64,000 bases of DNA from an uncultured Candidatus Binatia bacterium (lineage in GTDB: Bacteria > Desulfobacterota > Binatia > Bin18), in assembly GCA_965247985.1 (NCBI GenBank), contig OZ252051.1:3973045-4037044 (forward strand), read 5' to 3'. Both the position numbers and the translations under genes were made by a program. A model generated the notes under the pieces. The model saw only the letters and a program-made list of their open reading frames with translations. It did no database searches and was not told where the DNA came from. Below, piece by piece: positions 36,039 to 46,453 of the stretch. Position 1 is the stretch's first letter. Each line of letters begins with the position of its first letter.

Positions 36039-36054
36039 GCGTGTGGCACTACCG

Positions 36055-37188
36055 ATGAACCGGAGAGATTCGGAGTACGACCTGCTGATAGCCGGAGCCG
36101 GCCCGGTCGGTTGTGTTATCGCCGAGCGAGCCGCCAGCCAGCTCGGTTGGCGGGTCCTGCTGGTTGAGCAACGCAGCCATATTGCCGGCATGTGTTATGA
36201 CGGACTGCATACCAGCGGGGTGTTTATACATCACTTTGGGCCGCATTATTTTCGGACCAGCAACCCTGCTCTGGCCGAGTATCTGTCCCAATTCACCAAC
36301 TGGATCGACAGCAACTATATTGTAAAAAGCTGGGTGAACGGACGCTTGCACCCCTTCCCTATCAATCTCACAACGCTCGAAATGTTTTTCCACCGCCCTT
36401 TTACCGCCGCTTCAGCCGAGCAGTTACTCGATACCCTACGGGTAAAAATCAACGAACCGCAAAATGCCGAAGAATACGTATTGTCCCGCGTCGGACGCGA
36501 GTTGTACGAAGCATTTTATCTCCACTACACCCTGAAGGCATGGGGCAAACATCCGCGCGATTTACATCCGAGCGTCGTTGGGCGCATTCCTATTCGTTTC
36601 AACAGAGACGAACGCTATGTTGACCACACTTTTCAAAAAACTCCCGCGCAAGGGTTTACGGCCATGTTCGCCGCCATGCTGAATCACCCGAATATCGAAG
36701 TCCGGCTGAACGCCAGCTACAAAGACGCGGCCAAAGAAGTCCGGCCGCGCAGAGCGACAGTCTTTTCCGGGCCGGTAGATGCGTATTTTGATTACCGTTT
36801 AGGCAAACTTCCCTGGCGCTCGACCGCATTCGAGTTTGAATACTTTGATCAGGTGTTCAAACAGCCCTGTGTCCAAATCAACTATCCGACTCAGCATGCC
36901 TATACCCGCTCAACCGAGATCAAGCACCTGACCCGACAACGACACCCAGGCACAGTCGTAGCCTATGAATATCCGGGTGCGGACGGCGACCCGCTCTATC
37001 CTATCCCGGCGGCTGAGAATGAGCGCTTATACCAATCCTATGTAGAACTCGCGCAACGAGAAACACGGGACAAACACGTCTATTTTTGTGGCCGGCTGGC
37101 GCAATATACCTATATTAACTCCGACCAGGCCATGGAAAGAGCGCTCCAGACCTTTCAGCAAATCCGGGCGGATTGTGCGGGCGTGTAG
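36055..37188 (+). CDS. glf: UDP-galactopyranose mutase
   Basis: YDLLIAGAGPVGCVIAERAA (FAD fold), GPHYFRT, YTLKAWG and RLAQYTYINSDQAM. An alternative GTG start lies at 36043. Confidence 0.9.
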   Translation: MNRRDSEYDLLIAGAGPVGCVIAERAASQLGWRVLLVEQRSHIAGMCYDGLHTSGVFIHHFGPHYFRTSNPALAEYLSQFTNWIDSNYIVKSWVNGRLHPFPINLTTLEMFFHRPFTAASAEQLLDTLRVKINEPQNAEEYVLSRVGRELYEAFYLHYTLKAWGKHPRDLHPSVVGRIPIRFNRDERYVDHTFQKTPAQGFTAMFAAMLNHPNIEVRLNASYKDAAKEVRPRRATVFSGPVDAYFDYRLGKLPWRSTAFEFEYFDQVFKQPCVQINYPTQHAYTRSTEIKHLTRQRHPGTVVAYEYPGADGDPLYPIPAAENERLYQSYVELAQRETRDKHVYFCGRLAQYTYINSDQAMERALQTFQQIRADCAGV

Positions 37189-37928
37189 TGCAACAGCCCT
37201 CACACTCTGACACGCTCTTCGTTGTCCTGCCGGTGTACAACGAACAAGCTGCCCTGCGAGAGGTGATCGAAGAATGGCTGCCCGTTCTCAGAGCAGCCTG
37301 TGAAAATTTCGTCTTATACGCCATTAATGATGGCTCGACCGATGCGAGTCTCCGCATTCTCACGACGCTGTCCGCAGAGTTTCCCGAGATCGAAATACGG
37401 GATCAGGCCAACGCTGGCCACGGCCGCTCGTGTGTGCGCGGGTATGCGACCGCGGTCGCCCGCAATGCGGAGTGGGTCTTCCAAATAGACTCTGATGGTC
37501 AGTGCGATGTGCATTACTTTTCCAGCCTGTGGGACAGACGAAACACAAAGAAACCCGTGTACGGTTTTCGCTCCAAACGGGACGACGGCCTGAGACGGGT
37601 GCTGATATCACGAGCCCTGCGGTGGTGCGTCTATCTTGGAACCGGCACCTGGGTCCGAGACGCCAACGTCCCGTATCGGCTGATGCCCGTCTCCAGCGTT
37701 GCCCAGTGCCTCTCCCTCATCCCGGACAACCCTGCTTTGGCCAATGTTTTTTTATCCGCCCTGCAAGAGCACTACTATGGCATTGAGTGGGTCGATATCC
37801 GCTTCCGCAATCGCCACAGCGGCCAGTCGTCTCTGCGCTTCTCCGCCCTGCTGCGCACCGCGCTGCAACTGTATGGGCAACTCCGCCAGTGCTTTTCCGC
37901 TCTCCGCAAGTCCACCAAGTCCGCTTAA
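37173..37928 (+). CDS. Family 2 glycosyltransferase
   Basis: LFVVLPVYNEQAAL...YAINDGSTD...FQIDSDGQ (DxD). The start is uncertain: TTG at 37173 or GTG at 37188. It overlaps the glf end. Confidence 0.8.
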   Translation: MCGRVVQQPSHSDTLFVVLPVYNEQAALREVIEEWLPVLRAACENFVLYAINDGSTDASLRILTTLSAEFPEIEIRDQANAGHGRSCVRGYATAVARNAEWVFQIDSDGQCDVHYFSSLWDRRNTKKPVYGFRSKRDDGLRRVLISRALRWCVYLGTGTWVRDANVPYRLMPVSSVAQCLSLIPDNPALANVFLSALQEHYYGIEWVDIRFRNRHSGQSSLRFSALLRTALQLYGQLRQCFSALRKSTKSA

Positions 37929-38491
37929 CTGAGCGACAGGCGGAGGGTACCACTATCCAAATCTTGTCGAACCGCTTTCAGACAGGCCTCAAAATCGCCC
38001 TCGACCAATCGTCCGCCACTATCAAGCATGCCGCACTCCATCATAAGATTAATCGAGGTCCCAAAGTCGTCAACCAGCAGAAAGCCATCCTGGTCGATCT
38101 TTTGTCCGTCCGGCAGGGTCGTAAAACTGCACCGGCTTGGTAGGAATTCCTGCGCTGGAATCAAACGCTCAATATAACCATAGGTTGGTTTGCCGAGCGC
38201 GTTACCATACCCCAACTCATACGCCGTCCCGTCGTCGATTAACCCTCCTCGAAAGGCATTACAGTTCGCAACGATCATGTCACAGGCTTTGATCTGACCG
38301 ATGTCGCCCCGATAGATCTTCGTGGCCGTTCGCATTGAGCTTTCACTCAGGTCCACATTATTGTCCATGGGATGGAGGCCAATGAAACCGTACTGTACGC
38401 ACAGGCTCCGCTGAATCTGCGCGTACTCAACCGCGTCGGGGCGAAAGACTTCGGGTCCGGCGAGGTAGAGTTTAGGCGGAGTGTTTGACAT
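37925..38491 (-). CDS. Nucleoside 2-deoxyribosyltransferase family protein
   Basis: Start MSNTPPKLYLAGPEVF. Motifs CDMIVANCNAFRGGLIDDGTAYELGYGNALGKP. Its stop overlaps the convergent GT2 stop (TTAA). Confidence 0.8.
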   Translation of the reverse strand: MSNTPPKLYLAGPEVFRPDAVEYAQIQRSLCVQYGFIGLHPMDNNVDLSESSMRTATKIYRGDIGQIKACDMIVANCNAFRGGLIDDGTAYELGYGNALGKPTYGYIERLIPAQEFLPSRCSFTTLPDGQKIDQDGFLLVDDFGTSINLMMECGMLDSGGRLVEGDFEACLKAVRQDLDSGTLRLSLS

Positions 38492-38568: not shown

Positions 38569-39336
38569 TTACCGACCAATATACTTGGGCTCGCGTTTCT
38601 CCAGAAACGAATTGACCCCTTCTTCGTAATCATGGGTGGAGCGCAGCCAGGCGTAGGACTTGCGCTCTAACTCCAGGGCCGTCTCCAGCGCGGCATCAGC
38701 GCCTTTATTGAGCACCGTCTTTAAGGTCCGGAGTGCTAGGGGCGCGCGCTCAGCCAACTCAGTCGAAAGTTCGGCTAGGGCGCGCTCAAATTCGTCGCCA
38801 GCAACGCATTGCGTAATCAACCCCCACTGCTCGGCTTGGGGTGCTGTAATGCGGCGACCGGTCATCATAAACAACTTCGCCCGCGTCATACCGATGAGGC
38901 GCAGGGCCCGCTGCGTGCCACCGCTGCCAGGGATCATCCCCAGACGAATTTCAGGAAACGCGAACTGTGAGCGCTCAGTGGCAATACGAAAGTCGCAGGC
39001 CAGCGCGAGTTCAAGACCAGCTCCCATAGTATAGCCATCAATGGCCGCAATCACAGGCTTACGACAGCGCTCCGGCCAGCTCAGCGTGTCGCCCCACTCT
39101 TCCAGGTCGGCCGGCGTTTGGGTCAGGAATTCGGACAGGTCGCCGCCGGCACTAAACGCCTTTCCGCCCGCACCGCGAATAATGACCACTCGCACCGCGT
39201 CGTCCGCATCAAGACTGAGTATGAGGCCGGGCAGCTCTTTGCGCATGGCTACGGTGATGGTGTTCATCAGCGTCTGACGGTCAATCCAGATAGTTGCTTC
39301 AGCACCGTTCTTTTCTATGCGAATGACATCACTCAT
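38569..39336 (-). CDS. Enoyl-CoA hydratase/isomerase (crotonase) family protein
   Basis: Start MSDVIRIEKNG. Motifs VVIIRGAGGKAFSAGGDL, AAIDGYTMGAGLELALACDFRIA and PEIRLGMIPGSGGTQRL. Confidence 0.9.
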   Translation of the reverse strand: MSDVIRIEKNGAEATIWIDRQTLMNTITVAMRKELPGLILSLDADDAVRVVIIRGAGGKAFSAGGDLSEFLTQTPADLEEWGDTLSWPERCRKPVIAAIDGYTMGAGLELALACDFRIATERSQFAFPEIRLGMIPGSGGTQRALRLIGMTRAKLFMMTGRRITAPQAEQWGLITQCVAGDEFERALAELSTELAERAPLALRTLKTVLNKGADAALETALELERKSYAWLRSTHDYEEGVNSFLEKREPKYIGR

Positions 39337-39371
39337 TGTTCTTCTTCCTGTTTTCTTCTTCCAAGCAACAT

Positions 39372-39408
39372 CCCCTCGTCCCTTGGGGGAGAGGGCTAGG
39401 GTGAGGGG
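39372..39408. repeat. GGGAGAGGG-type dispersed repeat, copy 1
   Basis: cccctcgtcccttgggggagagggctagggtgagggg. It is near-identical to 59076-59112, in the same orientation, and lies in the spacer upstream of a minus-strand gene. Confidence 0.65.
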
Positions 39409-39433
39409 AATCAAAATCAGTTTTCATGAGACT

Positions 39434-40999
39434 TCACACCGTCTCATATTCTCCCTCAAGCAGTCTGCGACGCAATAATTTGCCCGTCGGACTCTTGGGT
39501 AAGCCGGGCACAAACTCATAGCGCCGCGGACGTTTGAAGTCGGCAAAGTCCTCGGCCTGACGACAGAAGGCGTCCAGGTCTTCCGCACGCAGCGCAACAA
39601 GACTCCCGTCAGCCCCCCGTTTGGGAATAACAAAGGCAGTGACCACCTGTCCCCAGCGCTGGTCCGGTAGACCGACGACACAAGCTTCATCAACCCCAGG
39701 GTGACGAGAGACAACCTCCTCAACCTCAAGCGGATAAATATTCTCCCCACCGCTAATGACCATATCATCCACCCGACCAACGGTGAAAATATCTCCGTCT
39801 TCGTCCTCGTACACGAGATCGCCGCTAAAATACCAGCCGCCACGCAGCGCTTTGGCATCCGCCTCGGGCCGCCGCCAATAGCCCTGAAACGCTTCGGGCG
39901 AGGAGAGACTGACAATCAGCTCGCCGGTTTCCCCCCGAGACAGAACGGCGTCCGGGTCACCCTGTCTTTCGGAATCAGCCCGCACGATGCGGATCCGGCT
40001 AAAGATACCGGCTCGGCCGGCACAGGTCGGTTTCTCCAATATACGATCACAGATCGTGAATGTATAAATTTCGGTACTCCCGAGATGATTGACAAAAACC
40101 CGAGGCTGGAAAATATCCGCAACCTGTTGCGTGAGTGTCCCGGACATGGGCGCTCCGGCGTAACCCAGCTTGGTGACGCTCGCCATTGCCGTCCGCGTGC
40201 AATCCGGCACATTGACCAGATCGTGATACAGCGTCGGAACGAGATAGAGCGACGTGACCTGCTCGTTCGCAATCAGATTCACGGCTGTCTCCGGGCTCCA
40301 GTCCGGCAGGCAGATCAAGCAACCGTTCAGTAAGGCCATGACAAGCATCGAGCGGACACCCATCGTATGGTAGAGCGGCATGACTCCGAGGGTGCGATCT
40401 CGAATGCTGTTCTGGCTTTGCAGGCTATGGGCGAGGGCCGCACTATACTCGGCCCGATGCGTGCGCGGCACTCCTTTGGGCCGACCGGTTGTGCCGGACG
40501 TATACAGCATAATGCTGCTGTCCGCTTCGGAAACCTCAGCTGGCGATGCCCTGCCGGTCCCTTCGTCCTCTAACAGAGCGGAAAAAGAAAGACAGTCTGC
40601 CGGGGGATTGTCTCCAACGTAGATCCAGGTATGAACGGTTGACAGTGAGGGCCGCGCCGCCTGGACCGCCGCGTGACTTGCCTGTTCAAATATGACCGCA
40701 ACCGCTTCCGCGTCCTGGACACAAAATGCGATATCCCCGGCTGACCAGCGCCAGTTAAGCGGCGTCGCAATGGCGCCGATCCGCTGACACGCCCAGTACG
40801 CGGTGGCATGTTCGAGCCGGTTTTTCAGCAAAAACACAACATGGTCACCGCGGGTAATACCACGCCGGTGTAAGGCCTGCGCCACCCGGCTGATACGAGT
40901 CTGCCAGGCGCGGTAGGTCAGACGCCGGTCTCCATCAATAATAGCCTCTGCCTCGGGATACCGAGCGGCGGCCATATCGATGACGCTGGCGATATTCAT
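39434..40999 (-). CDS. AMP-dependent acyl-CoA synthetase/ligase
   Basis: Start MNIASVID. Its ATG overlaps the upstream TGA (ATGA). Motifs MLYTSGTTGRPKGV, YHTMG, GELIV, SGDL.Y.DEDG and ISGGENIYP.EVE. Confidence 0.9.
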   Translation of the reverse strand: MNIASVIDMAAARYPEAEAIIDGDRRLTYRAWQTRISRVAQALHRRGITRGDHVVFLLKNRLEHATAYWACQRIGAIATPLNWRWSAGDIAFCVQDAEAVAVIFEQASHAAVQAARPSLSTVHTWIYVGDNPPADCLSFSALLEDEGTGRASPAEVSEADSSIMLYTSGTTGRPKGVPRTHRAEYSAALAHSLQSQNSIRDRTLGVMPLYHTMGVRSMLVMALLNGCLICLPDWSPETAVNLIANEQVTSLYLVPTLYHDLVNVPDCTRTAMASVTKLGYAGAPMSGTLTQQVADIFQPRVFVNHLGSTEIYTFTICDRILEKPTCAGRAGIFSRIRIVRADSERQGDPDAVLSRGETGELIVSLSSPEAFQGYWRRPEADAKALRGGWYFSGDLVYEDEDGDIFTVGRVDDMVISGGENIYPLEVEEVVSRHPGVDEACVVGLPDQRWGQVVTAFVIPKRGADGSLVALRAEDLDAFCRQAEDFADFKRPRRYEFVPGLPKSPTGKLLRRRLLEGEYETV

Positions 41000-43437
41000 G
41001 CAGGGCTTCCTTTCATACTCGCCTCCAACTGCTGCCACAGCTTGTTTGGGGTCAGGGGCAACTCGGTAATTTCAATACCAAGATGGCGGACGGCATCGGC
41101 CACCGCATTGGCAATGGCAATCGGCGCAGTCTGGGCGGTGCTTTCCCCGATGCCCTTGGCTCCGGTTAAGGACTGGGGAGTCGGCAGCACAATATGGTCC
41201 ATCACCACGTTGTCCGGCATTTCGTTCAGCGTCGGACACAGATAGTCCATCAACGTTCCGGTCAGAAAATCACCCGTCTCGGTGTAACGCAGCTCCTCGT
41301 ACAGAGCACCGGCAAGGCCGTGTAAGAGACCGCCGGCGAACTGTCCTCGGGCTATCTGTGGGTGCAGGATATTCCCGGCGTCGTGCACAGTAATGTAGTC
41401 GGTCACGCGGATATCGAGCGTCTCTGTATCGATCTCAACAACGGCAACATCCGCAGTGAAAGCATAGACCGCAGAAGAGTTCACCTGATCGTACTCGTTC
41501 GGATAGTCGAGATCACGGGCAATAAACGTTCCTTCAACGTTACAGGCGGTCTCCAACTTCGGCGGCAGCGTTCCGGTTGACCAGTGCAGACGCGCCGCGA
41601 CGTCTTTCAGGCTCAGGCCGAGCTGGGTGTTATCGAGCGCAACAATGCGGCCTTCCCGGACGCTGAGTCGATGCGCTTCAACATCCAGGAAGTAGGCAGC
41701 CGCCTGGATAAGATTGTCTTGCAACTGCTTGGTAGCAGCGACAATTGAACTTGCCCCGACCGCGCCAAAACGACTGGAATAGCTGCCTGAAGAAACCGAC
41801 CACGGTCTGGAGCCGGTATCCATCCCGGCGATGACAGTCACGTCTGCTGGCGCAATGCCCAAGGCTTGGGCGACAATAAAAGCGGCAGTCGTTTCCTGTC
41901 CCTGTCCGTGGGCCGCTGTCTCCAACTCAACCGTGACGCCGCCCGTCGCGTCCAAGTAGATACGTGTCGTCTGAGCCGAGCCGACTCGGACTAGGTTTGG
42001 GCGTCGCTGCGCGGCTTTCTTACTCACGTCTATATAGCCCATATTCGAGCCCGAGGGATCTATTGCAACGGCGATGCCAACCCCGCGCCACACCCTGGCA
42101 TCACTCGGACCTGAAGTACCCCCTGAAGTGCCGGTGGATTGCCGTAGCTTCCAGTAATCACTCAGTTCCAGCGCGCGCTGCGTGGCACGGGGATAATCCC
42201 CGGAGTCGTACAGTCCGCCCGTCACCGTGCGGTAGGGGATATCGTGTGGCTGGATGAGGTTTTGCAACCTGACCTCGGCTGGGTCTTTACCAATCTTCAG
42301 GGCGATTTCGTCAATCGCGCGCTCAATCGGGAAATAGTGCTGTTGGCAGGCATAGCCACGATTCGGGCCGCTGGGACAGACATTCGTCATGACCGCCAGG
42401 GCGTTGACCTGAAGATGCTCGATCTTGTAGGCGTTCATGAAATTGCCGACTGGACGGAACAAACAGCCAGGTTCCGGCGCACGAATATAGGCCCCCACAT
42501 TGTCCATGAGGCGCATTTTGAGACCGAGCAGTTGGCCATCATTGCGTGCCGCGACCTCAAGTTCCGTCACCCGGTCCGTTCCGGTCGAGCTTGCGCTGAG
42601 CGACTCCAGGCGGTCTTCGATCCACTTGACCGGACGGCCGGCTTTCCGAGAAGCAAGCGCCATTAAGGCCATATAGGGATACAGGGCGATCTTATTCCCG
42701 AATGAACCACCGACATCCGGTGGCGTTACTACGCGCAGCTTGCTGAGGGGAACACGGAGCGCCCCAGCCAAAACTGCCAGCATGCTATACGGCCCGTGAA
42801 AGTTGGCCCAAAAACTGACCTGTGACGAGGACGGATTCCAACTGGCGATAATCCCATAGGTTTCGAGTGGAAAGGACTGATAGCGGGGAAAAACATAGCG
42901 CTGCGAGAACACCATATCCGCAGTGCTGAAGACCGCTTCCACATCGCCGTAGGTGAGCTGACGATCGATGGCGACATTGGTTGCAAGCTCCTCATGCAGG
43001 ATGGGGGCCGAGGGCTGCATGGCGGCCTCAACATCAACCACGGCAGGCAGTGGCTCATACTCCACTTCGATTTTATCCCGGGCGTCTTCAGCAATATATC
43101 GGTCGGCGGCAACCACCACCGCGACCGGCTCGCCAACATAGCGTACTTTTTCGATAGCGCAGGAATAGTATCGTCCCGGACGTTCGGCAGCCACCGCAAA
43201 CGGCCGACTCCACCCTTGGATTTCACGCCCGGTCAGCACAGTGATGACGCCCGGAAGCGCCAGCGCAGCGCTGGGATCAATGTCTATAATACGCGCATGC
43301 GCATACGGGCTTCTCACCACCGCGGCATGGGCGAGATTGGGCAGCGGGTTGAGGTCGGCAATATACTGGGCCTGAAGATCAAAGAGCCGCCGGCCTTCGG
43401 TTGAGGGCGGCGGCGCGGTGGTTGGATGCTGAGACAT
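40996..43437 (-). CDS. Molybdopterin-dependent hydroxylase large subunit (xanthine dehydrogenase / aldehyde oxidase family)
   Basis: 813 aa. Contains Ald_Xan_dh_C and C2 regions, and the C-terminal catalytic Glu context GAKGIGESTAQTAPIAIANAV. The active-site loop reads GPNRGYACQQ. It is neither the VAYRCSFR loop (form I CODH) nor AYRGAGR. Confidence 0.9.
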   Translation of the reverse strand: MSQHPTTAPPPSTEGRRLFDLQAQYIADLNPLPNLAHAAVVRSPYAHARIIDIDPSAALALPGVITVLTGREIQGWSRPFAVAAERPGRYYSCAIEKVRYVGEPVAVVVAADRYIAEDARDKIEVEYEPLPAVVDVEAAMQPSAPILHEELATNVAIDRQLTYGDVEAVFSTADMVFSQRYVFPRYQSFPLETYGIIASWNPSSSQVSFWANFHGPYSMLAVLAGALRVPLSKLRVVTPPDVGGSFGNKIALYPYMALMALASRKAGRPVKWIEDRLESLSASSTGTDRVTELEVAARNDGQLLGLKMRLMDNVGAYIRAPEPGCLFRPVGNFMNAYKIEHLQVNALAVMTNVCPSGPNRGYACQQHYFPIERAIDEIALKIGKDPAEVRLQNLIQPHDIPYRTVTGGLYDSGDYPRATQRALELSDYWKLRQSTGTSGGTSGPSDARVWRGVGIAVAIDPSGSNMGYIDVSKKAAQRRPNLVRVGSAQTTRIYLDATGGVTVELETAAHGQGQETTAAFIVAQALGIAPADVTVIAGMDTGSRPWSVSSGSYSSRFGAVGASSIVAATKQLQDNLIQAAAYFLDVEAHRLSVREGRIVALDNTQLGLSLKDVAARLHWSTGTLPPKLETACNVEGTFIARDLDYPNEYDQVNSSAVYAFTADVAVVEIDTETLDIRVTDYITVHDAGNILHPQIARGQFAGGLLHGLAGALYEELRYTETGDFLTGTLMDYLCPTLNEMPDNVVMDHIVLPTPQSLTGAKGIGESTAQTAPIAIANAVADAVRHLGIEITELPLTPNKLWQQLEASMKGSPA

Positions 43438-43485
43438 AATGCTAAGAAAGACGCTGTTGGACTATCACGCAGGGGTTGAATCCGT

Positions 43486-43968
43486 TCACTTTCTTTGATC
43501 CCGCAAGCGCTTGGCTGCCTCCACAATACTCACATAGCCGGTGCAGCGACATATATGCCCCCCCAGCGTCTCTTGAATATCCCGGTCCGTAATCGGCTCT
43601 GGCGCGGTCTCCAGGAGATGACACAGACTAAGGGCGAAACCGGCAGTGCAAAAGCCGCACTGCATAGCAAAGTGCTCAACAAAAGCCTGCCCGACCGTTT
43701 TTCCGAGGTCGGTTTGCATGATCCCTTCAAGCGTGGTGATCGCATGTCCTGCCGCTTGCGGGGCCAAACGCAAACATGAACGAACGGGCAATCCATCAAC
43801 CAGCACCGTACAGGCACCGCACACCCCCTGCTCACACCCCAGATGTACGCTGGTGCAGCCGGCCTCTTCGCGCAGAAAGTCGGCCAGCGTTTTGCGAACG
43901 TCAACCAGCGTTTCAACTGGCGTTCCGTTGACGGCGGTCGTGACAATGATGCGGCGTTGAGGCTGCAC
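43486..43968 (-). CDS. (2Fe-2S)-binding small subunit
   Basis: GTG start 5 nt after AGGAGA, overlapping the upstream TAG by 1 nt. Motifs CEQGVCGACTV and CGFCTAG...NICRCTGY-type (HICRCTGY). Confidence 0.9.
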   Translation of the reverse strand: MQPQRRIIVTTAVNGTPVETLVDVRKTLADFLREEAGCTSVHLGCEQGVCGACTVLVDGLPVRSCLRLAPQAAGHAITTLEGIMQTDLGKTVGQAFVEHFAMQCGFCTAGFALSLCHLLETAPEPITDRDIQETLGGHICRCTGYVSIVEAAKRLRDQRK

Positions 43969-44864
43969 TATGCTCTCCTGACCGTGTTCTCTCGGCCTTC
44001 CTTCCCTTTCCACATAGCAACAGCATCCAGGTAGGCGCGCTTGACCATCACCCGAGCGAGATGCTTCCGATACTCGGCAGAGGCATGCAGATCAGTGTGA
44101 CAATCGAGTCCTGCGACAGCCGACGCCGCAACCGCCTCGGCCTGACCGTCAGACAATACCTGCTGTGTCAGCACGGCTTCAGCCTGGGGGACCCGCAGAG
44201 GGCGATCCTCCACGCCAAACAGGACGACACGTCCATGCGCACAACGGTCCTCACCCATCTCGGCCAGCACGATCGCCCCGGCCAGGGCAAAATCCCCCGC
44301 CCGTCGGGTGTACTCCCGCACCCCCCACACCACGTTCTTGCGGATGGGGATACGGACTTCGGTCAGCAGTTCGTCAGGCCGGATATCCGCGCTCAGGGGA
44401 CCCTGAAAAAAATCAACCGCCTGAATACAGCGTGCTCCGGACGGTCCGACAACGAGCAGCTCTGCGTTTAAGGCGCAAATTGCCGCCGGCAGTTCCGCGG
44501 CCGGGTCGGCATGGGCCAGACTCCCCCCAATTGTTCCCGCATACCGAATAGGCGGATGGCCGATCAGGCGCGTGACCGCAGCCAACACGGGCACGGTGCG
44601 CTGAATACGAGCGTCCCGTTCAAGCCTGTATTGCCGGGTGAGAGCGCCAATATGCAGGCGCTCAGCCTCTTGACGGATGTAGCTCAACTCGTCCAAGCCG
44701 TTGATGTCCACAACCACGCCGGGAGTTGTCAGTCGCATATTGAGGAGCGGCATAAGACTCTGGCCCCCAGCGAGAATCTTCGCCTCGTCGCCATACTGAC
44801 CAAGGACGGCCAGCGTCTGTTCGATTGATTTCGGAGCAATATACTCAAAGGGGGCAGGCTTCAT
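43968..44864 (-). CDS. FAD-binding subunit (CoxM/XdhB-like)
   Basis: Start MKPAPFEYIAPKS after GAGGGAGAA. Motifs ILAGGQSLMPLLNMR and AGTIGGSLAHADPAAE. There is no Cys-rich 4Fe-4S insertion. Confidence 0.9.
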   Translation of the reverse strand: MKPAPFEYIAPKSIEQTLAVLGQYGDEAKILAGGQSLMPLLNMRLTTPGVVVDINGLDELSYIRQEAERLHIGALTRQYRLERDARIQRTVPVLAAVTRLIGHPPIRYAGTIGGSLAHADPAAELPAAICALNAELLVVGPSGARCIQAVDFFQGPLSADIRPDELLTEVRIPIRKNVVWGVREYTRRAGDFALAGAIVLAEMGEDRCAHGRVVLFGVEDRPLRVPQAEAVLTQQVLSDGQAEAVAASAVAGLDCHTDLHASAEYRKHLARVMVKRAYLDAVAMWKGKEGRENTVRRA

Positions 44865-45021
44865 TTCTCCCTCTTCGACCTCGCGCCGGACTATACTATG
44901 GATGGAATAGCCAGTCCAGTTTTCCAGCCCCCTGCGTTTCTCCAGTTGACGCACCCCCGGACAATCCATATTGATGGGCCGAAGAGTCTAGGATCACTTT
45001 TTTTCCGAAAGGAGTATGTGT

Positions 45022-45696
45022 ATGAGCGGTCAAGAAGCAGGGCTCAACAACGAGCTCAAGCAACAAATCGTAGCCTTCCAAAAGGAAATGCTGCCAAAGA
45101 TTCCACCGGAGATTCGTGAGGTACTGGTCCGCACGACCGAAGATCAAGTCAAATCCGGCATCACGGCCAAGGCCCTGAAAGTCGGAGACAAAGCCCCTGA
45201 CTTCACCCTGCCCAACGTGCGTGGAGAGGCGGTGACGCTTTCAAACCTCCTGGCCAAAGGACCGGCCGTCATTGCCTTTTATCGAGGCGCGTGGTGACCG
45301 TACTGCAACCTGCAGTTGCAGGCTTACCAAAAACGCTTGGCTGAGATGCAGGCGCAAGGCGCGTCCTTGATCGCCATCTCTCCCCAGACCCCGGATAATT
45401 CGTTGACTGTTGCAGAAAAGAATGAGCTTCAATTTGAGGTTCTCAGCGACGCCGGCAACGCCGTCGCCCGACAGTTCGGGCTGGCGTTTCGATTTGTTGA
45501 TGAGTTGCAGGAGACCTTTGAAAAAATGGGTATTCAACTGCCCACATACAATGGCGATGAGGCTTGGGAACTACCGATACCCGGCACCTATGTCATTGAC
45601 CAGGACGGCACCATTACGCTGGCCTATGTGGATGCAAACTATACCACCCGGCTTGAGCCAGGTGATATTCTTGACAGTCTGCAAGGGCTGAATTAA
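45022..45696 (+). CDS. Predicted selenoprotein: PRX_like2 / AhpC-TSA family thiol-disulfide oxidoreductase with Sec (UGA 45295-45297) in a W-U-P-Y-C motif
   Basis: Track ORFs 45016-45297 and 45316-45696 share one frame, separated only by TGA plus 6 codons. The joined sequence reads ...PAVIAFYRGAW-U-PYCNLQLQAYQKRL...LIAISPQ. The family normally has FYRG.WCPYCN there. A hairpin follows the UGA. Confidence 0.7.
45300..45327 (+). promoter_or_regulatory. Candidate bacterial SECIS stem-loop
   Basis: ctgcaac-ctgca-gttgcag (45303-45321), extendable by gta/tac. The loop lies 13-17 nt after the UGA and contains G. Confidence 0.5.
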
Positions 45697-45856: not shown

Positions 45857-46123
45857 ATGCCACGCAATCTTCCTTTATCTGAGGCAAAAGCGAAACTAAG
45901 CCAGATCATCGCAGATGTAGAGAGTACAGAAGAAGAAATTACCATCACCCGGAACGGGCGTCCTGCCGCTGTACTGATGAGTGCGGATGAATTCGCGAGT
46001 TGGCAAGAAACAAGAGCAATTCGTCAGGATCCCGAATTGATGCGAGAAATTAAACGTGGACTTCGGCAACTCCAGAAAGGACAACGATTCACTTTTGAAG
46101 ATATCTTTGGGGAGCCGCTCTGA
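45857..46123 (+). CDS. Phd/YefM family antitoxin
   Basis: LSEAKAKLSQIIADVESTEEEITITRNGRPAAVLMSADEFASWQET. Confidence 0.9.
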   Translation: MPRNLPLSEAKAKLSQIIADVESTEEEITITRNGRPAAVLMSADEFASWQETRAIRQDPELMREIKRGLRQLQKGQRFTFEDIFGEPL

Positions 46124-46132
46124 AGGAAGAGT

Positions 46133-46453
46133 ATGGCGAAAACGCCCCGGTATCGTATAGAAACCGCGAAAGCTGTCCGAGATGCAATCATTCACCTCCC
46201 CCCACATCTCAAACGAAGAGTGAAAGCAGCCTTTCGAGCTATCGCGGGCAATCCGCACCAGGCAAGGCCTCTCAAAGATGAATTGATATGGCTCCGAAGT
46301 TATCGGGTCGGCAGGAACCGGCTTGTCCTGCGTATCAAAGGCTCCGTCATCGAAATTATTGCCTTCGGTCCCCGGAGTAATATCTACGAACGCGCCGCTG
46401 CTGAACTCAGCATCTCATTGCGTGCCAAAGACGAAAACGACGAGAAAGGGTGA
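46133..46453 (+). CDS. RelE/ParE family toxin
   Basis: 106 aa, 10 nt downstream of the antitoxin. LKDELIWLRSYRVGRNRLVLRIKGSVIEIIAFGPRSNIY. Confidence 0.8.
   Translation: MAKTPRYRIETAKAVRDAIIHLPPHLKRRVKAAFRAIAGNPHQARPLKDELIWLRSYRVGRNRLVLRIKGSVIEIIAFGPRSNIYERAAAELSISLRAKDENDEKG

What the first reader, a model, noticed from the sequence alone, without database searches (positions are those of the whole stretch)
38569..44864. Translationally coupled Mo-hydroxylase (FAD / 2Fe-2S / Mo subunits) + acyl-CoA ligase + crotonase operon, functionally parallel to the furoyl-CoA pathway genes hmfABCDE
Seen in the sequence: the minus-strand order is FAD subunit, 2Fe-2S subunit (GTG overlapping the upstream TAG), 813-aa Mo subunit, AMP-dependent CoA ligase (ATGA overlap) and enoyl-CoA hydratase-family protein. 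A nucleoside 2-deoxyribosyltransferase-family gene follows after 77 nt.

The large subunit's active-site loop reads GPNRGYACQQ. It matches neither the CODH signatures (VAYRCSFR / AYRGAGR) nor the common RG.G loop. The FAD subunit has no Cys-rich insertion, which argues against 4-hydroxybenzoyl-CoA reductase.

Established knowledge: the furfural/2-furoate (Trudgill) pathway uses exactly these five functions: HmfD ligase, HmfABC Mo-dependent 2-furoyl-CoA dehydrogenase and HmfE crotonase-family hydrolase.

Inference: the operon hydroxylates a (hetero)aromatic acyl-CoA thioester. The substrate could be furoate, thiophene-2-carboxylate, a pyrrole or pyridine carboxylate, or something new given the odd loop.
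Basis: partly seen in the sequence, partly recalled or inferred. Interest (0 to 1): 0.6.

Follow-up and report, generated by a model that had tools for sequence, protein, structure and literature searches.

The report
Furoate-type CoA/molybdenum operon, variant form
An uncultured soil bacterium (Binatia) carries a diverged version of the known five-gene operon that breaks down 2-furoic acid as a coenzyme A ester. Its molybdenum enzyme comes from an unstudied sister lineage with a cysteine in the active-site loop, so the pathway type is known but the substrate is not.

Summary
Five co-directional minus-strand genes encode a FAD subunit, a 2Fe-2S subunit, an 813-aa Mo subunit, an AMP-dependent CoA ligase and a crotonase, with the start/stop overlaps described.

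All five are true homologues of HmfB, C, A, D and E, not just functional parallels. Identity to the hmf clusters of Cupriavidus necator pENH92, Dinoroseobacter shibae pDSHI01 and Geobacillus kaustophilus pHTA426 is 37-49%.

- The ligase sits inside the HmfD clade.
- The crotonase falls in a separate sister clade, here called "ech-II".
- The large subunit lies outside the canonical HmfA clade. It belongs to a large uncharacterised group with loop GPNRGY[A/G]C; canonical HmfA has GL.RG[F/Y]GG.

This Cys-loop subunit is also joined to an HmfD-type ligase and ech-II in a different gene order in Rokubacteria, and the two co-occur across Rokubacteriales genomes. So the cluster is a type-II Hmf-like acyl-CoA hydroxylation pathway. 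2-Furoate is the best single substrate guess, unproven.

Two caveats. Genus-mates lost the ligase at least four separate times while keeping the Mo enzyme under purifying selection. The deoxyribosyltransferase-family gene is only a neighbour.

The scan has reported hmf-like operons on other DNA before. Verdict: new variant of a known kind, moderate interest.

The parts
43968..44864 (-). FAD-binding medium subunit (HmfB/CoxM type), 298 aa
   Evidence: Pfam FAD_binding_5 and CO_deh_flav_C. 37-43% identical to HmfB of reference clusters. Four scattered Cys and no Fe-S insertion.
43486..43968 (-). 2x[2Fe-2S] small subunit (HmfC/CoxS type), 160 aa; its GTG start overlaps the upstream TAG by one base
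   Evidence: Pfam Fer2 and Fer2_2. Junction read. Both Cys motifs are present. 46-49% identical to HmfC.
40996..43437 (-). Molybdopterin large subunit, 813 aa, Cys-loop type (GPNRGYACQQ at residues 357-366); no CoxG domain
   Evidence: Pfam Ald_Xan_dh_C, MoCoBD_1 and MoCoBD_2. Below every NCBIfam cut-off. 41-48% identical to HmfA. Placed in the HmfA superclade but outside the canonical clade.
39434..40999 (-). AMP-dependent acyl-CoA ligase of the HmfD family, 521 aa, ATGA overlap with the large subunit
   Evidence: Pfam AMP-binding and AMP-binding_C. 48-49% identical to HmfD against at most 35-36% for paralogues in its own genome and relatives. Inside the HmfD clade. Core motifs intact.
39372..39408 (-). 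37-nt dispersed repeat in the ligase-crotonase spacer; it creates the false N-terminal extension of the TTG ORF
Evidence: The spacer sequence and the translated 'LTLALSPKGRGD' stretch were seen.
38569..39336 (-). Crotonase-fold enzyme of the HmfE superfamily, 'ech-II' subclade, 255 aa
   Evidence: Pfam ECH_1. 44-48% identical to HmfE and 74-79% to Rokubacteria/metagenome ech-II. Both catalytic Glu are conserved. Clade support 95*.
44890..44918 (-). Sigma-70-like promoter match upstream of the FAD-subunit gene (weak evidence)
   Evidence: 9 of 12 matches. The number of such sites in the region is no higher than in shuffled sequence.
37925..38491 (-). Nucleoside 2-deoxyribosyltransferase-family gene: a neighbour, not part of the pathway
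   Evidence: Pfam PF05014. It is kept at the same place in genus-mates that lost ligase, crotonase or all five genes. It is absent from every other hmf-like locus examined.

Best explanation
The operon encodes a type-II version of the Hmf (Trudgill) lower pathway.

1. An HmfD-family ligase makes the CoA thioester of a small (hetero)aromatic carboxylate of the 2-furoate kind.
2. The FAD / 2Fe-2S / Mo enzyme hydroxylates the ring with oxygen from water. It passes the electrons through the Fe-S clusters and FAD to an unknown acceptor.
3. After tautomerisation and ring opening, the crotonase-fold ech-II enzyme hydrates or hydrolyses the CoA ester. If the substrate is furoate, the product is 2-oxoglutarate.

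Shown here: homology of all five proteins to HmfABCDE, intact catalytic motifs, translational coupling, and repeated independent linkage of this Mo-enzyme lineage with HmfD-type ligases and ech-II.

Inferred: the chemistry, and the substrate. 2-Furoate is the single most likely substrate at about 0.35. A related acid such as thiophene-2-carboxylate or pyrrole-2-carboxylate is about equally likely in sum. The invariant Pro/Cys loop suggests that the active site differs from that of canonical HmfA.
For: 1. Identity to bona fide hmf clusters. The references are C. necator pENH92, which carries hmfFGH-type genes, LysR, hmfABCDE and an MFS gene; D. shibae pDSHI01; and G. kaustophilus pHTA426. Values: L 41-48%, M 37-43%, S 46-49%, ligase 48-49%, crotonase 44-48%. 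This spread equals the spread among the Hmf orthologues of different phyla. It meets the published working criterion of HmfA, D and E homologues at 40% or more lying side by side (PMC3223595).

2. The ligase lies inside the HmfD clade, on a long stem with 100* support. Ligase paralogues in the same genome reach at most 35%.

3. The L subunit lies in a 99-100* superclade with HmfA. It is separate from form-I CODH, form-II CoxL and other Mo hydroxylases.

4. Across 160 fetched loci, L above about 41% identity goes with an adjacent ligase and crotonase. L at 33-38% never does.

5. Cys-loop L is joined to an HmfD-type ligase and ech-II in a second gene order, lig-ech-L-M(-S). This is seen in metagenome locus L120 and in Rokubacteriales genomes G394, G414 and G360.

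6. In 81 Rokubacteriales genomes, ech-II and Cys-loop L are both present in 35, ech-II only in 7, L only in 8 and neither in 31.

7. The catalytic residues are intact: Arg360, Glu192 and Glu765 in L, the Fe-S cysteines, the ligase core motifs and both crotonase Glu.
Against: - L is outside the canonical HmfA clade (97* monophyly of the GL.RG[F/Y]GG rows). It differs at two invariant active-site-loop positions.
- The CoxG/SRPBCC module found with most canonical HmfA loci examined (30 of 37 holding a canonical-loop L) is missing from the operon. It is encoded only elsewhere in the genome.
- No transporter, regulator, hmfFGH or UbiD gene is nearby or, for UbiD, anywhere in the genome.
- Most Cys-loop L genes in other phyla have no ligase or crotonase within reach.
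- Within the genus the ligase was lost at least four separate times. In those genomes M-S-L stayed intact with dN/dS near 0.1. The Mo enzyme therefore does not depend on this ligase.
- No biochemical datum exists for any member of the Cys-loop or ech-II clades.
Confidence: 0.7

Rival explanations
1. The M-S-L enzyme acts on its own, on a substrate that is not a product of the adjacent ligase. That substrate could be a free N- or O-heterocycle, an aldehyde, or a CoA ester made elsewhere. On this reading the Rokubacteria-like lig-ech module is a loosely attached, dispensable add-on.
For: - In 6 of the 17 genus genomes that have an L orthologue (16 of them with all of M-S-L shown intact or adjoining the ligase), the ligase is gone: G001, G002, G006, G007, G023 and G340. 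In two of these the crotonase is gone too. The deletion junctions differ, so the losses were independent.
- L still evolves at dN/dS 0.09-0.12. This includes the G007-G023 pair, which shares the same ligase replacement (0.096 at dS 0.355).
- These genomes have no other HmfD-type ligase.
- Most Cys-loop L-M-S loci in Rokubacteriales, Gaiellaceae and Caldarchaeum have no adjacent ligase or crotonase.
- ech-II and the ligase are 64-79% identical to Rokubacteria genes while L is only about 50% identical. This suggests a mosaic origin.
Against: - The crotonase is also kept under purifying selection in four ligase-less genomes (dN/dS 0.08-0.16). That points to continued CoA-ester chemistry.
- The same three functions were joined independently in another gene order.
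- Genome-level co-occurrence is strong: 35, 7, 8 and 31.
- L and the ligase are translationally coupled by an ATGA overlap in the window.
Confidence: 0.18
2. The operon is a decaying remnant in this lineage and has no function in the window's genome.
For: The distribution in the genus is patchy: 11 of 28 genomes lack L, and several carry partial clusters. A dispersed repeat sits in the ligase-crotonase spacer.
Against: All five frames in the window are intact with conserved catalytic motifs. dN/dS is about 0.1 for L and the crotonase between full-cluster genomes. The start/stop overlaps are preserved.
Confidence: 0.05
3. It is a 4-hydroxybenzoyl-CoA reductase-type enzyme (reductive dehydroxylation of an aroyl-CoA), or an aerobic CO dehydrogenase / form-II CoxL that merely lies next to fatty-acid genes.
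For: The three subunits hit TIGR03193-03195 and TIGR02416 with significant E-values. The best solved relative is a CoxL, 8uem.
Against: - All scores are far below the curated cut-offs: 363 bits against 995 for the HcrA model, 451 against 991 for the CoxL model.
- The FAD subunit has no Cys-rich Fe-S insertion.
- The loop lacks AY.CSFR and AYRGAGR, and the gene sits in a different, well-supported clade.
- The ligase and crotonase are HmfD/E-family members, not FadD/FadB types.
- No cox accessory genes are adjacent.
Confidence: 0.04

Closest known systems
hmfABCDE, the 2-furoate lower (Trudgill) pathway of Cupriavidus basilensis HMF14 and orthologues. Compared here with C. necator NH9 pENH92, D. 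shibae DFL12 pDSHI01 and G. kaustophilus HTA426 pHTA426 (PMC3223595, PMC8091172).
   Same: The same five protein families, all homologous at 37-49% identity, in one tightly coupled operon. The ligase is within the HmfD clade. The crotonase has both catalytic Glu. L is in the same superclade.
   Different: - Gene order is M-S-L-lig-ech, not L-M-S-lig-ech.
- L lies outside the canonical HmfA clade, with GPNRGY[A/G]C in place of GL.RG[F/Y]GG.
- No CoxG domain or gene is in the operon.
- The crotonase is in a separate ech-II clade.
- No hmfFGH, regulator or transporter is nearby.
- The host is an uncultured Binatia bacterium.
Cys-loop L-M-S genes of Rokubacteriales, Methylomirabilis, Acidobacteria and Entotheonella. 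JGI auto-names them '2-furoyl-CoA dehydrogenase large subunit'; none is characterised.
   Same: The same loop type, with Pro and Cys invariant in 105 sequences. L is about 50% identical (69% to the Entotheonella factor cluster). The same ech-II partner at 74-79% identity.
   Different: In most of those genomes L-M-S is separate from lig-ech. There lig-ech sits in a cluster of CoxG, a PaaK-like ligase, a Zn-ADH, lig, ech-II and a luciferase-like monooxygenase. Where the genes are linked, the order is lig-ech-L-M-S. The loop ends in GH rather than QQ.
Thiophene-2-carbonyl-CoA monooxygenase (EC 1.14.99.35) of Aquamicrobium defluvii. From my own knowledge: a Mo-containing enzyme, and to my knowledge no gene has been assigned to it.
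   Same: It would need the same logic: a ligase, a Mo-dependent hydroxylation of a five-membered heteroaroyl-CoA, and ring opening to 2-oxoglutarate.
   Different: No sequence is available for comparison, so the link is only a possibility.
4-Hydroxybenzoyl-CoA reductase HcrABC (PDB 1rm6)
   Same: A three-subunit xanthine-oxidase-family enzyme that acts on a CoA thioester.
   Different: It is a much more distant relative (248 bits against 419 for CoxL 8uem). It has a [4Fe-4S] insertion in the FAD subunit that is absent here, and it works reductively.

Membership tests
hmfABCDE 2-furoate pathway | [quoted passage not shown] 2011, PMC3223595) | tested here: met
   42%, 49% and 47% identity to the C. 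necator pENH92 proteins. The genes are contiguous. HMF14 itself was not available for comparison.
hmfABCDE 2-furoate pathway | Large subunit inside the canonical HmfA clade, with the XDH-like loop GL.RG[F/Y]GG | tested here: not met
   The loop is GPNRGYACQQ. The canonical rows form a 97* clade that excludes the window clade. A sister position cannot be rejected (AU p = 0.42).
hmfABCDE 2-furoate pathway | Ligase inside the HmfD clade | tested here: met
   The HmfD superclade has 100* support. The window clade nests between the actinobacterial clade and the Firmicutes/Proteobacteria clades, with 84-92 support.
hmfABCDE 2-furoate pathway | Crotonase inside the canonical HmfE clades | tested here: inconclusive
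   It is inside the HmfE superfamily (99*) but in a separate ech-II clade (95*) together with partners of Cys-loop L.
hmfABCDE 2-furoate pathway | CoxG/SRPBCC domain fused to HmfA or encoded next to it | tested here: not met
   None is in the operon. The two CoxG genes of the genome lie elsewhere.
hmfABCDE 2-furoate pathway | Canonical gene order A-B-C-D-E | tested here: not met
   The order is B-C-A-D-E. Gram-positive variants also deviate (PMC3223595).
hmfABCDE 2-furoate pathway | Growth on 2-furoate, or 2-furoyl-CoA dehydrogenase activity | not testable with these tools
   The organism is uncultured and no biochemical data exist.
Xanthine oxidase / Mo-hydroxylase family (three-subunit type) | Hammerhead and two MoCo-binding domains in L, the catalytic Glu near the C-terminus (GxGE), the loop Arg, two 2Fe-2S motifs in S and an FAD_binding_5 domain in M | tested here: met
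Form-I aerobic CO dehydrogenase | Active-site loop AY(R/A)CSFR with the Cu-binding Cys; score over the TIGR02416 cut-off | tested here: not met
   The loop differs and lacks the 2-residue insertion. Score 451 bits against a cut-off of 991. The gene sits in a separate clade.
4-Hydroxybenzoyl-CoA reductase | [4Fe-4S]-binding Cys insertion in the FAD subunit; scores over the TIGR03193-03195 cut-offs | tested here: not met
   Four scattered Cys only. Scores of 107, 127 and 363 bits against cut-offs of 405, 258 and 995.

The most novel reading that the evidence does not exclude
The Cys-loop M-S-L enzymes, together with ech-II, form a distinct and uncharacterised family of acyl-CoA-hydroxylating molybdoenzymes. 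Their substrate is not 2-furoyl-CoA. One candidate is thiophene-2-carbonyl-CoA, whose Mo enzyme to my knowledge has no assigned gene; another is pyrrole-2-carbonyl-CoA. On this reading the invariant loop Cys, four residues after the catalytic Arg, has a catalytic, persulfide or metal-binding role, by analogy with the Cu-binding Cys of CODH.
Probability: 0.2. Interest if true: 0.7.

Novelty: new variant of a known kind. Interest (0 to 1): 0.42.

Why it matters
Automatic annotation calls thousands of soil and sediment proteins '2-furoyl-CoA dehydrogenase'. This analysis shows that many of them belong to a sister lineage of the enzyme that was actually studied. That lineage has its own invariant active-site loop and its own partner crotonase. 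It is common in uncultured groups: Binatia, Rokubacteria, Methylomirabilis, Acidobacteria and Entotheonella.

If its substrate is furoate, furan breakdown is much more widespread in soil bacteria than the proteobacterial surveys suggest. If it is another heteroaromatic acid, the lineage may account for an orphan enzyme activity. In either case the Binatia operon offers a compact five-gene set that can be expressed and tested.

Tried and rejected
The genomic context of the closest metagenomic relatives (P0003-P0035, including the Entotheonella cluster at 69%) could not be read. I used the search for related loci, the genome search and the fetch from genomes instead.
- **NCBIfam gave no family over its cut-off** for any of the five proteins.
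- **The deoxyribosyltransferase-family gene is not a pathway member.** I rejected it because it stays in place when the operon is partly or wholly absent.
- **A redoxin link was dropped.** The window has a Prx-like selenoprotein upstream and L120 has a redoxin upstream of its ligase. The two proteins belong to different thioredoxin-fold types: WUPYC Prx-like2 against a WCTPC TlpA-like protein.
- **Clade-specific residues.** A search for positions separating the canonical and Cys-loop groups returned only the two loop positions that defined the groups, so it adds nothing independent.
- **Greedy ORF calling** on high-GC Rokubacteria loci was unreliable. I replaced it with targeted Pfam scans.
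- **No structure was predicted.** The tools return no coordinates, so the distance from Cys364 to the Mo site could not be measured.
- **Literature.** Searches found no paper that links Binatia or Rokubacteria with furoyl-CoA, and none on thiophene-2-carbonyl-CoA genes.
Full report
**1. The observation**

The window comes from a complete 4.48-Mb genome of an uncultured Binatia bacterium.

On the minus strand lie, in order:
- a FAD-subunit gene (44864-43968);
- a 2Fe-2S-subunit gene (43968-43486), whose GTG shares one base with the upstream TAG;
- after 48 nt, an 813-aa molybdopterin subunit (43437-40996);
- an AMP-dependent ligase (40999-39434), joined by an ATGA overlap;
- after a 97-nt spacer that holds a 37-nt dispersed repeat, a crotonase (39336-38569);
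- 77 nt further, a nucleoside 2-deoxyribosyltransferase-family gene (38491-37925).

The listed 281-aa TTG crotonase ORF is an artefact of reading through the repeat. The loop GPNRGYACQQ is at residues 357-366 of the large subunit.

**2. Relation to hmfABCDE**

A tblastn search of plasmids led to three reference clusters.
- *Cupriavidus necator* NH9 pENH92 carries UbiD/UbiX/GMC-oxidoreductase (hmfFGH-type) genes, LysR regulators, then L(1012 aa)-M-S-ligase-crotonase-MFS.
- *Dinoroseobacter shibae* DFL12 pDSHI01 is from a confirmed furfural degrader, according to PMC3223595.
- *Geobacillus kaustophilus* HTA426 pHTA426 has UbiD ... XdhC-MocA-L-CoxG-M-S-ligase-crotonase.

The window proteins compare with these as follows:

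| Protein | Identity to reference clusters |
|---|---|
| L | 41-48% |
| M | 37-43% |
| S | 46-49% |
| Ligase | 48-49% |
| Crotonase | 44-48% |

The Hmf orthologues of different phyla are no closer than this to each other. The nearest ligase paralogues in the window's genome and its relatives reach only 35-36%. The published working criterion for hmf clusters is met: HmfA, D and E homologues at 40% or more, side by side (PMC3223595). No NCBIfam model reaches its cut-off. JGI auto-names relatives '2-furoyl-CoA dehydrogenase large subunit'.

**3. Position in the family trees**

Large subunit. I used 203 large subunits with FastTree and 66 with IQ-TREE. Both show a 99-100* superclade that holds HmfA and the window protein. 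It is separate from form-I CODH (loop AY.CSFR), form-II CoxL (AYRGAGR) and other groups.

Inside the superclade:
- Every row with the XDH-like loop GL.RG[F/Y]GG forms one clade (97*). These are the loci with hmf-type neighbours in Proteobacteria, Bacillales and Actinobacteria.
- The window clade lies outside it, among lineages with the loop GPNRGY[A/G]C. This clade comprises Binatia plus 63-80% metagenomic relatives. One of their 90% clusters contains *Candidatus* Entotheonella factor.
- The branching order of the window subclade, the canonical clade and the main Cys-loop clade is unresolved. A sister position to HmfA is not rejected (AU p = 0.42).
- Pro358 and Cys364 are invariant in 105 Cys-loop sequences. 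The canonical group has Leu and Gly there. This comparison is circular as a discovery step, but it shows that no other position separates the groups at 90% conservation.

Ligase. It is inside the HmfD superclade (100*, long stem). Its nearest kin are Rokubacteria ligases at 64-68%.

Crotonase. It belongs to a distinct ech-II clade (95*) within the HmfE superfamily. It is 74-79% identical to Rokubacteria and metagenome members. Both crotonase Glu residues are conserved, as in HmfE.

**4. Is the Cys-loop enzyme really tied to CoA chemistry?**

Across the 80 genome loci anchored on L, an adjacent HmfD/E-type pair goes with L identity above about 41%. It never occurs with L at 33-38%. Of 80 metagenome loci anchored on the ligase, nearly all are canonical hmfABCDE. 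Locus L120 instead shows an ABC importer, then lig, ech-II (77%), Cys-loop L and M.

In 81 Rokubacteriales genomes the counts are:

| ech-II (73-79% identity) | Cys-loop L | Genomes |
|---|---|---|
| present | present | 35 |
| present | absent | 7 |
| absent | present | 8 |
| absent | absent | 31 |

- One of the seven 'ech-II only' genomes, G333, in fact has a frameshifted L.
- Three of the 35 'both' genomes (G370, G387, G411) are unpublished. Without them the 'both' count is 32.
- Related genomes are not independent, so this table is suggestive, not a formal test.

In G394, G414 and G360 the order is lig-ech-L(-M-S), and the G360 ligase is 64% identical to the window's. The same three functions were therefore joined at least twice in different orders. 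This supports a real functional link.

In most Rokubacteria, however, L-M-S is separate. There lig-ech sits in a conserved cluster of CoxG, a PaaK-like ligase, a Zn-ADH, lig, ech-II and a luciferase-like monooxygenase. In other Cys-loop lineages no ligase or crotonase is near: Caldarchaeum L049, Gaiellaceae L028 and the Proteobacteria MAG L019. One Cys-loop locus, G076 (identical to P0051), lies next to two UbiD-like genes and a UbiX gene. This recalls hmfFG.

**5. Microevolution in the genus**

Of 28 genus genomes, 17 have an L orthologue with an open frame and 14 have the crotonase. Ten have the full M-S-L-lig-ech set.

The ligase was removed in at least four different ways:
- a 53-codon remnant is left in G001;
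- a clean deletion in G006;
- replacement by an opposite-strand HSDR_N-domain gene, shared by G007 and G023;
- separate deletions of ligase plus crotonase in G002 and G340, with different junctions.

These genomes hold no other HmfD-type ligase. Yet M, S and L stay intact, and L evolves at dN/dS 0.09-0.12 in all pairs. This includes G007-G023 (0.096 at dS 0.355). The crotonase evolves at 0.08-0.16. So the Mo enzyme, and in four genomes the crotonase, is maintained without this ligase. Either another enzyme supplies the CoA ester, or the Mo enzyme has a ligase-independent role. This is the main evidence for the rival reading.

The deoxyribosyltransferase-family gene stays at the same place in every variant. 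That includes genomes that lack all five genes (G022, G013), and the gene occurs next to no other hmf-like locus. It is a neighbour only.

**6. Other context**

The genome has about 12 large-subunit paralogues, all at most 39% identical. It has two CoxG genes and one XdhC gene elsewhere, and no UbiD gene. Upstream of the operon lie a divergent Prx-like selenoprotein gene and a Phd/ParE toxin-antitoxin pair. No transporter or regulator is adjacent. A weak sigma-70-like site lies upstream of the first gene.

**7. Conclusion**

The operon is a diverged, mosaic relative of hmfABCDE. It most likely activates a furoate-like carboxylate, hydroxylates it as the CoA ester and opens the ring. The enzyme lineage is uncharacterised and the substrate is open.

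It fails several membership features of canonical hmfABCDE: the clade and loop of L, CoxG, and gene order. I therefore file it as a new variant that works like Hmf, not as an hmfABCDE member.

The scan has already reported hmf-like operons in other genomes (actinobacterial, archaeal and marine), so the general theme is not new to it. No paper in the held library links Binatia or Rokubacteria with this pathway.

Noticed in passing
G001, G002, G006, G007, G023, G340 (loci L191-L196), syntenic with window 38569-44864: Genus-mates lost the ligase, or the ligase plus the crotonase, by at least four different deletion or replacement events. They kept M-S-L intact under purifying selection. In G007 and G023 the ligase is replaced by an opposite-strand 346-aa gene with an HSDR_N (type I restriction R, N-terminal) domain.
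   Followed up: yes
L104:1144-5004, L116:2891-9033, L115, L117 (Rokubacteria-type loci): A conserved cluster: CoxG, a PaaK-like 441-aa ligase, a 342-aa Zn-dependent dehydrogenase, an HmfD-type ligase, ech-II and a luciferase-like monooxygenase. No Mo subunit is adjacent. Its pathway is unexplained.
   Followed up: partly
L108 (G076:C168:4000-16806), identical to protein P0051: A Cys-loop large subunit followed by CoxG and M lies directly downstream of two UbiD-like genes and a UbiX gene. This echoes the hmfFG decarboxylase association, but without a ligase or crotonase.
   Followed up: partly
window 36043-37928: A UDP-galactopyranose mutase (glf) gene and a family-2 glycosyltransferase gene are present here but absent from the otherwise syntenic relative L016. 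This is an insertion or deletion right next to the operon.
   Followed up: partly
window 45857-46453: A Phd/YefM antitoxin gene and a ParE-like toxin gene sit between the Prx-like selenoprotein gene and the threonine synthase gene.
   Followed up: partly
L043:3263-7997 (Rokuibacteriota MAG QHRW01000157.1): Two large-subunit genes lie in tandem. The Cys-loop copy (50% identical to the window's) is split by a frameshift near residue 465. The upstream copy is a 35% paralogue.
   Followed up: no
window L subunit residues 211-216 (within 40996-43437): In the whole HmfA superclade the motif around the conserved Gln of CODH and form-II enzymes ([ST]SQ.PH) reads SNF[H/M/Q]GP. The aligned position is His here, Met in C. 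necator HmfA and Gln in D. shibae.
   Followed up: partly
protein cluster of P0005 (69% identical to the window's L): This 90%-identity cluster contains proteins of Candidatus Entotheonella factor and E. gemina (ETW97164.1, ETX03883.1). The window's L clade therefore extends to sponge-associated Tectomicrobia. Their gene context could not be read.
   Followed up: no
L120:9167-9802 and window 45022-45696: A thioredoxin-fold redoxin lies directly upstream of both Cys-loop clusters. The two are of different types: TlpA-like WCTPC in L120 and a Prx-like2 selenoprotein WUPYC in the window. Probably coincidence.
   Followed up: partly
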